A stretch of DNA of 64,000 bases from Escherichia coli (GTDB taxonomy: Bacteria; Pseudomonadota; Gammaproteobacteria; Enterobacterales; Enterobacteriaceae): NCBI RefSeq assembly GCF_017348835.2, contig NZ_CP071375.1. One strand, written 5' to 3'. Of the stretch, positions 3,001 to 6,000 are shown one piece after another (positions within the stretch are counted from its first letter, which is position 1; every line of letters begins with the position of its first letter). A program made the position numbers.

Positions 3001-6000
3001 AGGACTCACTTCCCTGAATATGAAATAATATCCAGCGCCTCTGCGGAGGACCTTACCTTATTACAATTACGTCGTTCCGGATTAGTCATTGCTGATTTAG
3101 CCGGTGAAAGTGAAGATCCACGTTCTGTTTGTGAACATTATTATTCTTTAATCTCACAATATCGGGAAATTCACTGGGTTTTCATGGTGTCACGCTCCTG
3201 GTATTCCCAGGCAGTAGAATTGCTCATGTGCCCTACGGCGACGTTATTGTCTGATGTTGAACCCATTGAGAATCTGGTCAAGACCGTACGTTCCGGCAAT
3301 ACGCACGCAGAGCGTATCAGCGCCATGCTGACCTCCCCGGCAATGACTGAAACTCATGATTTTAGCTATCGCTCCGTCATTCTCACTCTTTCAGAGCGCA
3401 AGGTACTGCGGCTATTAGGTAAAGGATGGGGCATCAACCAGATAGCTTCATTACTTAAGAAAAGTAATAAAACTATCAGCGCCCAAAAAAACAGTGCGAT
3501 GCGTCGACTGGCAATTCACAGCAACGCTGAAATGTATGCATGGATAAATAGCGCGCAGGGTGCAAGAGAACTTAACTTGCCTTCTGTTTATGGAGATGCC
3601 GCAGAATGGAACACAGCCGAATTAAGAAGAGAAATGTCGCACTCATAGAAAAATGCGTCATGAGTAGTATCGGTATTGAGAGTTTATTCAGAAAGTTTGC
3701 GGGCAACCCTTATAAGCTCCATACCTATACCAGTCAGGAGTCATTTCAGGATGCCATGTCGCGGATCTCGTTTGCGGCGGTCATTTTTTCTTTTTCTGCC
3801 ATGAGAAGTGAGCGCAGAGAGGGATTATCTTGCCTGACTGAACTGGCGATTAAGTTTCCGCGTACCCGGCGTTTAGTTATTGCGGATGATGATATTGAAG
3901 CTCGGCTGATTGGTTCATTGTCGCCATCACCGCTGGACGGTGTATTAAGTAAAGCGTCAACGCTGGAGATTTTTCATCAGGAACTCTTTTTGTCATTAAA
4001 TGGTGTACGTCAGGCGACCGACCGACTGAACAATCAGTGGTACATTAACCAAAGCCGGACGTTAAGCCCGACGGAGAGAGAAATATTGCGCTTTATGTCG
4101 CGTGGCTACTCAATGACACAAATTGCCGAGCAGCTTAAACGCAATATCAAAACGATCCGTGCACATAAATTTAATGTGATGTCGAAACTGGGCGTCAGTT
4201 CTGACGCAGGGTTGTTGGAGGCCGCAGATATTCTGTTATGTATGCGGCATTGCGAAACAAGTAATGTGTTGCATCCATATTAATCCGCATGATGCCGGGT
4301 TTACTTCCCCGGCAGTGCTTTCATTTCAGCGTACAATCGCCACATTGCTGCACATCCGGTAAGCGATAACGCTGGCAGCAAGTGCGGCGCACCAGCAGGC
4401 CGTCGCGTAGCACCACGGTACGCCAGAGTGGATTATCTTCACCGGTAGTAAGCGTTTTCTCAAAAAAGAGGGCATGGCGCAGCGATTCAACCGTCGCCTC
4501 GCCGAGCAGTTGCTTCATCTCAGTGAGATACCAGTTGATCAAATAACCGGTATTACTCCAGATAAGTTTGCCGTTGATCTCTCCGGTCGCTTCTAGTGCC
4601 TGCACAACCGGAACCAGCGCCTGGCTGATTAACGTTTCCATTCGCTGCTGCGGCGAATGTGGTGTTGCGTTTTTATCTTCACACACATCGACCCAGAAAC
4701 AGGCGACGCGTCCGGTTTCGTGAAACTCAGCATGGAAATGTTCCGGCGACACATCTAATGCTTTTTCCTGCGTCAGTAGCGCCAGCATTAATGGTGGCAC
4801 CATCAGGCCGATATACCATTGTGCCCATAGTGAGATCAGCGGCTTGTTCTCGCGGATCATCGTTGGTTGGTTGCGATAGATATGATCGGAATAGACCGCG
4901 AGTAGAGAACTTAGCGCATTCGGTGATGACCATTGCGCCAGCGTCATGGCGTTAAGCGGAGCGGGTTCATCCAGGCGGATAAACTCGAGCAAATGTTCAC
5001 GATGTTTGGCGATCATCGCCCGTACGGCTTGTGCAAGCCCAGCATCCTGCGGCTGGAGATGTGTTCGCCAGATGACATCTTCATAGAGCGGTGCGGAACG
5101 ATAGGCCATAATCGGGATAGTAATCTAAATGATAATGATTGCTAATCCTAGTGATGGGTTTACCCGATAGCAAGGGATTTCTCTGGCTTGCAAATGATAA
5201 AAATTATCATATGATATTGGTTATCATTATCAATGAAAGAGATGAAACCATGTTGCAACGTACGCTGGGCAGTGGCTGGGGAGTGTTGCTGCCGGGATTG
5301 CTGATTGCAGGGCTGATGTATGCGGATTTATCGCCGGATCAGTGGCGGATTGTCATTCTGATGGGATTAGTATTGACGCCGATGATGCTGTATCACAAAC
5401 AGTTGCGGCATTACATTTTGCTACCATCGTGCCTGGCGCTTATTGCTGGCATCATGCTGATGATAATGAATTTGAGGCAGGGATGATAAAACAGGGAAGC
5501 AACAAGAAAGGAAGTAAAGATAATTGGTGCGAGGGGGGGGACTTGAACCCCCACGTCCGTAAGGACACTAACACCTGAAGCTAGCGCGTCTACCAATTCC
5601 GCCACCTTCGCACAGTCATCTTACTTTTTTGATATCGCCTCGTTTGGTGCGAGGGGGGGGACTTGAACCCCCACGTCCGTAAGAACACTAACACCTGAAG
5701 CTAGCGCGTCTACCAATTCCGCCACCTTCGCCCAGTGCGAGCAATATCAACGTGGTTTTTGGTGCGAGGGGGGGGACTTGAACCCCCACGTCCGTAAGGA
5801 CACTAACACCTGAAGCTAGCGCGTCTACCAATTCCGCCACCTTCGCATACCATCAATTCTTAAAAAGAATTGCTACCACGGAGGCGCATTCTAGTGGTTT
5901 TCAGCTTTTCGTCAATAGTTAATTATCGCCGGAGGTGTAATTGCTGGAAAAATGTCCATCAGGAAACTAGCGTGCAGGTTTGGTAGGCATGCGGGGGCAG

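What the first reader, a model, noticed from the sequence alone, without database searches (positions are those of the whole stretch)
5645..5731. Middle tRNA-Leu copy carries one substitution in the variable arm
The three tandem tRNA-Leu(CAG) genes are identical except for one base in the middle copy (plus-strand A versus G near 5684). In the tRNA this changes a C to a U in the long variable arm, turning a C-G pair into a U-G wobble, so the fold is preserved.
Basis: seen in the sequence. Interest (0 to 1): 0.25.

Follow-up and report, generated by a model that had tools for sequence, protein, structure and literature searches.

The report
Known leuP variant of E. coli tRNA-Leu
The one-base difference in the middle of three tandem leucine tRNA genes is real, but it is the standard, already documented leuP allele of E. 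coli: an old change that keeps the base pairing and is shared with many related bacteria, so it is ordinary.

Summary
The window is E. coli, and the three minus-strand tRNA-Leu(CAG) genes are the leuQ-leuP-leuV operon, lying between rsmC and yjjZ/fhuF. The copies are identical except at tRNA position 48 of 87. This is window 5684, which reads A where the other copies read G at 5564 and 5799.

Position 48 sits in the 4-bp stem of the long variable arm, so C48-G55 becomes a U48·G55 wobble. The pairing is kept but is predicted to be about 2.9 kcal/mol weaker.

This is not a read error or a private mutation:
- It is the K-12 MG1655 reference leuP allele.
- It occurs in 4845 of 5426 complete E. coli genomes.
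- It is stated in the literature.

The same C-U-C arrangement is found in Salmonella, Citrobacter, the Klebsiella oxytoca group, Raoultella, Kosakonia and others. U48 is also the leuT allele in many Enterobacterales. It is dispensable: O157:H7 has a single C copy, O55:H7 has C-C-C, and a Klebsiella array is C-C-C.

The best reading is a long-lived, nearly neutral isodecoder. Novelty: already known. Interest is low. A small chance remains that selection maintains the C/U pair.

The parts
5760..5846 (-). leuQ, the first-transcribed tRNA-Leu(CAG) gene (C at tRNA position 48)
   Evidence: ARAGORN; Rfam RF00005 at 48.5 bits. The order and names follow NC_000913.3. The trailer CCA-AAAACC matches the leuQ trailer given in the text of PMC2190699.
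5645..5731 (-). leuP, the middle tRNA-Leu(CAG) gene, encoding the U48 isodecoder (the finding)
   Evidence: ARAGORN, alignment and Rfam at 48.5 bits. It is identical to MG1655 leuP, including U48.
5684..5684 (-). The variant base. Plus-strand A gives U at tRNA position 48 (probably Sprinzl e12; this is my assignment). It pairs with G55 in the variable-arm stem.
   Evidence: The other two copies have G at 5564 and 5799.
5525..5611 (-). leuV, the last tRNA-Leu(CAG) gene of the operon (C48)
   Evidence: ARAGORN and Rfam. The trailer CCA-AUUAUC matches leuV in PMC2190699.
5888..5915 (-). Sigma-70 promoter of the operon: -35 TTGACG, 16-nt spacer, -10 TAGAAT, followed by a GC-rich stretch (GCGCCTCC)
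   Evidence: Consensus scan, 10 of 12 matches. The position upstream of leuQ is as expected for the tRNA-Leu1 operon promoter. Its function was not tested here.
5732..5759 (-). leuQ-leuP spacer (28 nt). It carries the 5' arm of an inverted repeat that brackets leuP.
5612..5644 (-). leuP-leuV spacer (33 nt). It carries the 3' arm of the inverted repeat.

Best explanation
The feature is leuP, the middle gene of the E. coli leuQ-leuP-leuV operon.

Shown here or in the cited literature: the three genes sit downstream of a promoter-like site with a strong match to the sigma-70 consensus. According to PMC2190699 they are co-transcribed, and RNase P separates the transcript into individual tRNAs. leuP differs from leuQ, leuV and leuT only by U instead of C at position 48. 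That position is in the stem of the long variable arm and gives a U·G wobble in place of a C-G pair.

Inferred: because E. coli leucyl-tRNA synthetase does not use the variable arm, the U48 tRNA is expected to be charged and to decode like the C48 form. On this reading the difference is a nearly neutral isodecoder polymorphism. It was inherited from an ancestor of Enterobacteriaceae and has been slowly shuffled or lost by gene conversion and by unequal recombination within the array.
For: Identity and context:
- The window shows synteny bglJ - fhuF - yjjZ - 3 x tRNA-Leu - rsmC - holD - rimI.
- A 601-nt query finds matches of 90-100% identity in 5425 of 5426 complete E. coli genomes, with the same annotated yjjZ/tRNA-Leu neighbours.
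- MG1655 annotation names the genes leuV, leuP and leuQ, with U48 only in leuP.

Already known:
- A tRNA-seq preprint lists (leuP) separately from (leuQ leuT leuV).

Structure:
- The variable stem is 46-49:57-54, so C48-G55 becomes U48·G55. The isolated arm goes from -5.2 to -2.3 kcal/mol.
- Only pairing-preserving changes are seen in this stem among relatives.

Neutrality for charging:
- The variable arm's sequence and folding do not correlate with leucylation, and tRNA-Leu lacking the arm stays active (PMC9976931).

Age and spread:
- U48 is in 4845 of 5426 E. coli genomes.
- RsmC-anchored loci, which are unbiased for the variant, give C-U-C in S. enterica and S. bongori.
- A U-specific genome scan found 31 three-copy C-U-C arrays across at least 12 genera, and about 38 argX-hisR-leuT-proM loci with U48 in leuT.
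- Arrays in Morganellaceae are also linked to rsmC.

Turnover and dispensability:
- C-C-C arrays occur in O55:H7 CB9615 and in a Klebsiella locus.
- Two-copy and single-copy arrays occur in E. coli (ECCTRSRTH03, O157:H7 WS4202, EcPNK006) and in Salmonella.
- A delta-leuVPQ strain has been built and studied (PMC9981150).
Against: - The U sits in the middle copy in nearly all three-copy arrays that contain it: 31 C-U-C, 2 C-C-U, 1 U-U-C and 0 U-C-C. Both alleles also persist across families. That is more orderly than a freely drifting neutral site might be expected to be.
- Common ancestry and the general slowness of this locus can explain this. The spacers are 82-100% identical between genera. 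No formal test against a neutral rate was possible.
- The predicted 2.9 kcal/mol loss in the variable arm could matter for tRNA stability or processing. No experimental comparison of U48 and C48 tRNA was found.
- The genome scan found only U-bearing loci and stopped at 120 loci, so the denominator is poorly known.
Confidence: 0.85

Rival explanations
1. The C48/U48 pair of isodecoders is kept by selection because the U48 tRNA has a distinct property, such as different stability, modification, processing, fragment production or resistance to a tRNA-targeting nuclease.
For: Both alleles are found from Escherichia to Xenorhabdus and Proteus at the same rsmC-linked array and at leuT. The middle-copy position is conserved in 31 of about 34 fully typed three-copy arrays. 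K. pneumoniae has C-C-C in the array but U48 in leuT, while E. coli has the reverse, so both species still hold one U copy.
Against: - About 11% of complete E. coli genomes have no U48 copy at all, including the successful O157:H7 and O55:H7 lineages.
- leuT switches between U and non-U among Citrobacter amalonaticus strains.
- The variable arm is not read by E. coli LeuRS.
- Other C-G pairs of the same stem also appear as wobbles in other genera, as relaxed constraint would predict.
- The scan could not see genomes with only C copies.
Confidence: 0.08
2. The single central mismatch in the middle copy is retained because it interrupts the 87-nt identity between neighbouring repeats. This would lower slippage or recombination that deletes copies, and so stabilise the three-gene array.
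For: - The mismatch is near the centre of the repeat (position 48 of 87) and in the one copy that neighbours both others.
- Collapsed arrays exist, and one lineage pairing runs from homogenised to collapsed: O55:H7 has C-C-C and O157:H7 WS4202 has a single copy.
- From my own knowledge, not checked here: diverged tandem repeats are stabilised by mismatch repair in E. coli (Lovett and Feschenko 1996). That paper is not held in the library.
Against: - Other E. coli tandem tRNA arrays are listed as perfectly identical copies and persist anyway, for example glyV/X/Y, metV/W/Z and argQ/V/Y/Z.
- The evidence amounts to one anecdotal lineage.
- Second-order selection of this kind is weak.
- leuQ and leuV remain identical to each other, so a mismatch in leuP would not hinder collapse by recombination between those two copies.
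Confidence: 0.04
3. The difference is a sequencing or assembly error, or the middle copy is a decaying pseudogene.
For: None for this window. Some public assemblies do show probable errors at this locus. A re-sequenced MG1655 (CP025268) has C-C-C and a 9-C run. An old Nissle 1917 assembly has a 10-nt gap in the third copy.
Against: The same base is present in 4845 independent complete genomes and in the K-12 reference. It is also present in Salmonella and many other genera. All three copies get the same covariance-model score. Pairing is preserved. The operon's three tRNAs are processed to mature tRNA (PMC2190699).
Confidence: 0.01

Closest known systems
E. coli K-12 leuP (b4369), the middle gene of the leuQ-leuP-leuV (tRNA-Leu1) operon
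   Same: The 87-nt sequence is identical, including U48. The order, strand, neighbours (rsmC upstream, yjjZ/fhuF downstream) and the leuQ-leuP spacer are the same.
   Different: Nothing within the tRNA genes. The leuP-leuV spacer has one A fewer than in K-12 (33 nt against 34), and the downstream 60 nt are 90% identical.
leuQ, leuV and leuT of E. coli (the C48 isodecoder of tRNA-Leu(CAG))
   Same: 86 of 87 positions, the same anticodon CAG, discriminator A73 and encoded CCA.
   Different: C instead of U at position 48, giving a Watson-Crick pair instead of a wobble in the variable-arm stem.
U48 alleles of leuT and of rsmC-linked arrays in other Enterobacterales (Salmonella, Citrobacter, Klebsiella, Raoultella, Enterobacter, Xenorhabdus, Proteus, Morganella)
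   Same: The variable-arm sequence UGUUCUUACGGACGU is the same. The C-U-C order is the same in many Enterobacteriaceae.
   Different: Which gene carries the U differs between taxa. It is leuP only in E. coli and Salmonella, leuT only in K. pneumoniae and Enterobacter cloacae, and both in K. oxytoca, Raoultella and some Citrobacter. Morganellaceae have two-copy arrays in U-C or C-U order. Many of these tRNAs also have G5·U68 instead of A5·C68.

Membership tests
tRNA (Rfam RF00005) | Covariance-model score at or above the curated gathering score | tested here: met
   All three copies score 48.5 bits against a gathering score of 29, over the full model 1-71. The model treats the variable arm as an insertion, so it is blind to the variant.
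Type II tRNA-Leu, isoacceptor CAG | Anticodon CAG, and a long variable arm with a stem and loop | tested here: met
   ARAGORN places anticodon cag at position 35 in an 87-nt gene. The 15-nt variable region has a 4-bp stem and a UUAC loop. Changes seen in relatives keep the pairing.
Type II tRNA-Leu, isoacceptor CAG | E. coli leucine identity elements: discriminator A73, A15 with U48 (Sprinzl numbering), G18G19 | tested here: met
   The sequence ends ...CGC-A-CCA. It has A15, G18 G19 and a U immediately before the T stem in all three copies. The elements are as listed in PMC9976931. This is presence in the sequence only; charging was not tested.
E. coli leuQ-leuP-leuV operon (leuP = b4369) | Three tandem tRNA-Leu(CAG) genes between rsmC and yjjZ/fhuF on one strand, with U48 only in the middle gene | tested here: met
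   ORF context, matches in E. coli genomes with annotation, and the MG1655 annotation and sequence.
E. coli leuQ-leuP-leuV operon (leuP = b4369) | Co-transcription from one promoter, and separation of the tRNAs by RNase P | not testable with these tools
   A strong sigma-70-like site lies upstream of leuQ. Processing is taken from PMC2190699.
Functional isodecoder (expressed, charged, used in translation) | Mature U48 tRNA is present and aminoacylated in cells | not tested
   Two E. coli K-12 RNA-sequencing studies treat LeuP as a distinct species. No quantitative comparison was retrieved.

The most novel reading that the evidence does not exclude
The C48/U48 pair of tRNA-Leu(CAG) isodecoders is an order-wide dimorphism that selection actively maintains in Enterobacterales. 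Either the U48 tRNA behaves differently, or a central mismatch in the middle repeat protects the tandem array from collapse. It would then not be a neutral leftover.
Probability: 0.1. Interest if true: 0.5.

Novelty: already known. Interest (0 to 1): 0.1.

Why it matters
As it stands it matters little. It is a textbook operon and a documented single-base isodecoder difference.

Practically, it explains why leuP must be handled separately from leuQ, leuT and leuV in tRNA-seq read assignment. It also warns that assemblies and polishing can erase or invent this base.

If selection did maintain the C/U pair across Enterobacterales, it would be a rare bacterial example of a functionally distinct isodecoder, or of a mismatch that stabilises a tandem gene array. 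The present evidence does not require either.

Tried and rejected
- **Covariance-model comparison.** Rfam RF00005 gives identical scores because the variable arm is an insertion in that model. It therefore cannot discriminate between the copies. No isotype-specific type II model was available.
- **Free-energy folding of the whole unmodified tRNA.** Neither variant gives the cloverleaf as its minimum-energy structure. Only the energy of the imposed cloverleaf and of the isolated arm was used.
- **Genome-wide scan.** It stopped at 120 loci and cannot see all-C genomes, so it gives presence but not frequency.
- **Unbiased sampling through RsmC homologues.** The listed hits were almost all Salmonella. 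Only Salmonella, Kluyvera and one Klebsiella-like locus were added. I ran no further search on this.
- **Counting leuP-C genomes from identity bands of 88-nt queries.** Partial matches and spacer variants made the counts ambiguous. Examples were fetched instead.
- **Mismatch-repair paper.** Lovett and Feschenko 1996, on mismatch repair stabilising diverged tandem repeats, is not held in the library. That argument rests on my memory only.
- **Rejected readings.** A read error and a pseudogene were both rejected.

Full report
**Observation**

ARAGORN finds only three tRNA genes in the window. All are tRNA-Leu(CAG), 87 nt, on the minus strand, at 5525-5611, 5645-5731 and 5760-5846. Aligned in tRNA orientation they are identical at 86 of 87 positions. 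Column 48 reads C, T, C, with T in the middle copy. On the plus strand this is A at 5684 against G at 5564 and 5799.

**What the locus is**

The neighbouring ORFs are bglJ, fhuF, yjjZ, then the three tRNAs, then rsmC, holD, rimI and yjjG. A 601-nt query across the array finds matches of 90-100% identity in 5425 of 5426 complete E. coli genomes, under annotations 'tRNA-Leu (x3) | yjjZ'. In MG1655 (NC_000913.3) the genes are annotated leuV, leuP and leuQ, and the middle one, leuP, carries the same T while the outer two carry C.

Transcription runs from high to low window coordinates. So 5846..5760 is leuQ, 5731..5645 is leuP and 5611..5525 is leuV. The 3' trailers (CCA-AAAACC, CCA-AACGAG, CCA-AUUAUC) match those given for leuQ, leuP and leuV in the text of PMC2190699.

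A strong sigma-70-like site lies upstream of leuQ: TTGACG, 16 nt, TAGAAT, at 5915..5888 on the minus strand. According to PMC2190699, the tricistronic transcript is separated by RNase P, independently of RNase E, and ends at a Rho-dependent terminator.

**Structure**

The 15-nt variable region (positions 45-59) forms a stem G46-C57, U47-A56, C48-G55, C49-G54, with a UUAC loop. The leuP change makes U48·G55.

With the cloverleaf imposed, the energy goes from -33.2 to -30.3 kcal/mol. For the isolated arm it goes from -5.2 to -2.3 kcal/mol. So pairing is retained but is predicted to be weaker.

The helix is supported by relatives. Among 32 distinct tRNA-Leu(CAG) sequences from the fetched Enterobacterales loci, the variable-arm variants are:
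- U48 opposite G
- U49 opposite G
- U57 opposite G46
- loop changes
- one double change, U47-A56 to C47-G56

None of these breaks a pair. Rfam's tRNA model scores all three copies at 48.5 bits against a gathering score of 29. It treats the variable arm as an insertion, so it cannot register the change.

**Is it known?**

Yes. [quoted passage not shown] A tRNA-seq preprint lists (leuP) apart from (leuQ leuT leuV).

**Frequency in E. coli**

I used a 41-mer centred on the variant, so that every 28-nt seed word includes it. It matches 4845 of 5426 complete genomes, with a median of one place per genome. The C version matches 5425 genomes, with a median of three places.

Genomes without U48 include:
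- homogenised C-C-C arrays: O55:H7 CB9615, and a re-sequenced MG1655 (CP025268) that also has a 9-C homopolymer and may be a polishing artefact
- a two-copy C-C array: ECCTRSRTH03
- single-copy arrays: O157:H7 WS4202 and EcPNK006

In an evenly spaced sample of the ranked hits, 3 of 40 rows were single-copy arrays. This suggests that array collapse accounts for much of the 11% of genomes lacking U48. The allele is therefore the majority state, but it is neither fixed nor essential. A delta-leuVPQ strain has also been built and studied (PMC9981150).

**Related genomes**

Annotating these loci gave:
- 31 three-copy arrays with the order C-U-C, in Escherichia albertii, Salmonella arizonae, Citrobacter, Klebsiella oxytoca/grimontii/indica/spallanzanii, Raoultella, Kosakonia, Pseudocitrobacter, Phytobacter, Intestinirhabdus and others
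- only 2 C-C-U arrays and 1 U-U-C array
- two-copy arrays in U-C order (Xenorhabdus, Photorhabdus) or C-U order (Proteus, Morganella)
- about 38 argX-hisR-leuT-proM loci in which leuT carries U48 (Enterobacter, Citrobacter, Klebsiella, Raoultella, Morganella, Xenorhabdus, Pantoea, Escherichia whittamii)

The tandem arrays, including those of Morganellaceae, lie next to an rsmC homologue.

Because that scan sees only U-bearing loci, I added loci anchored on RsmC homologues, which are unbiased for the variant:
- S. enterica and S. bongori have C-U-C, with single-copy arrays in some assemblies.
- A Klebsiella locus has C-C-C.
- A Kluyvera locus has two copies with other variable-arm variants.

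So U48 is an old allele that sits in different genes in different lineages. It is leuP only in E. coli and Salmonella, leuT only in K. pneumoniae (L088 together with L132), and both in several genera.

**Mechanism and significance**

E. coli LeuRS does not use the variable arm. Its sequence and folding do not correlate with leucylation, and tRNA-Leu lacking the arm remains active (PMC9976931).

Three things fit a nearly neutral isodecoder that is inherited by descent and occasionally erased by gene conversion or unequal recombination:
- the pairing-preserving nature of the change
- the occurrence of wobble variants at the other C-G pairs of the stem in other genera
- natural lineages that lack U48

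The orderly C-U-C pattern across genera is the one feature that hints at more. However, the whole array evolves slowly. The spacers are 82-100% identical between genera, against about 60-70% for the 60 nt downstream. The species are also not independent samples. I could not run a proper rate test.

Two non-neutral readings remain possible at low probability. One is a functionally distinct U48 tRNA. The other is a central mismatch that lowers recombination between neighbouring repeats. Against the second, other E. coli tandem tRNA arrays are listed as perfectly identical copies.

**Verdict**

The feature is the already documented leuP isodecoder, so interest is low.

Noticed in passing
window 5629-5642 and 5738-5750 (minus-strand spacers either side of leuP): The leuQ-leuP spacer (TTGATATTGCTCG) is complementary to the leuP-leuV spacer (CGAGGCGATATCAA). 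leuP is therefore bracketed by a leader-trailer helix of about 13 bp. Across 32 distinct spacer pairs from Enterobacteriaceae, 95.6% of cells pair, against 28-51% in slid controls. Only 3 pairs show changes on both sides, so covariation support is weak. By eye, similar complementarity brackets leuV (AAGTAAGAT / ATCTTTACTT) and leuQ (CGTGGT / ACCACG).
   Followed up: partly
window 5612-5644, 5732-5759 and 5465-5524: The two inter-tRNA spacers are 82-100% identical between E. coli and other genera, with the upstream 80 nt at 80-100%. The 60 nt downstream of leuV are only about 60-70% identical. The spacers therefore look constrained, perhaps as processing signals.
   Followed up: partly
window 5525-5611, 5645-5731, 5760-5846 (tRNA positions 5 and 79): All three copies have a non-Watson-Crick A5·C68 in the acceptor stem, flagged by cmscan. 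Related genera have G5·U68 or even C5·C68 at the same place. This position seems to be kept unpaired or wobble in tRNA-Leu(CAG).
   Followed up: no
L135, L136, L137, L138 (E. coli); L124, L127 (Salmonella): The rsmC-linked array varies in copy number within species. There are three copies in most genomes, two in ECCTRSRTH03, and one in O157:H7 WS4202, EcPNK006, one S. enterica assembly and one S. bongori complete genome. O55:H7 CB9615 has three copies, all C48.
   Followed up: partly
L134 (NZ_CP025268.1, MG1655 re-sequencing) and L139 (NZ_CP007799.1, Nissle 1917): CP025268 shows C-C-C and a 9-C run in leuV, whereas the MG1655 reference has C-U-C and 8 C. The old Nissle assembly has a 10-nt gap in the D arm of the third copy, which also carries U48. 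These are likely assembly or polishing artefacts at a repeat and a homopolymer. PMC8510543 does report the 8-C run as a genuine indel hotspot.
   Followed up: partly
L004, L008, L040, L050, L088 and about 30 other loci: In many Enterobacterales the U48 allele sits in leuT, within argX-hisR-leuT-proM. In E. coli leuT is C48, while Escherichia whittamii has U48 in leuT. Among Citrobacter amalonaticus strains the leuT state differs.
   Followed up: partly
PMC2190699 compared with window 5636-5644 and 5750-5759: Table 1 of that paper gives the trailers of leuQ and leuP the opposite way round from its own text. The window sequence agrees with the text: leuQ CCAAAAACC and leuP CCAAACGAG.
   Followed up: yes
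window 5950-6100: Between the leuQ promoter and the end of rsmC there are repeated palindromic segments that look like REP/BIME elements, for example GCCAGATGCGACGCTGGCGCGTCTTATCTGGCCTAC and GTAGGTCGGATAAGGCG...CGCATCCGAC. One scored as a terminator-like hairpin on the plus strand at 6002-6021.
   Followed up: no
window 13805-14085, 44275-44394, 49676-49718, 58173-58250, 59635-59787: Rfam hits elsewhere in the window are three tandem naRNA4 (REP325-type) units, the thr operon leader, ES036, tpke11 and sok. The thr leader, tpke11 and sok lie near the start of K-12 numbering, while leuQPV lies near 4.606 Mb in K-12. I infer that the window runs across the K-12 coordinate origin.
   Followed up: no
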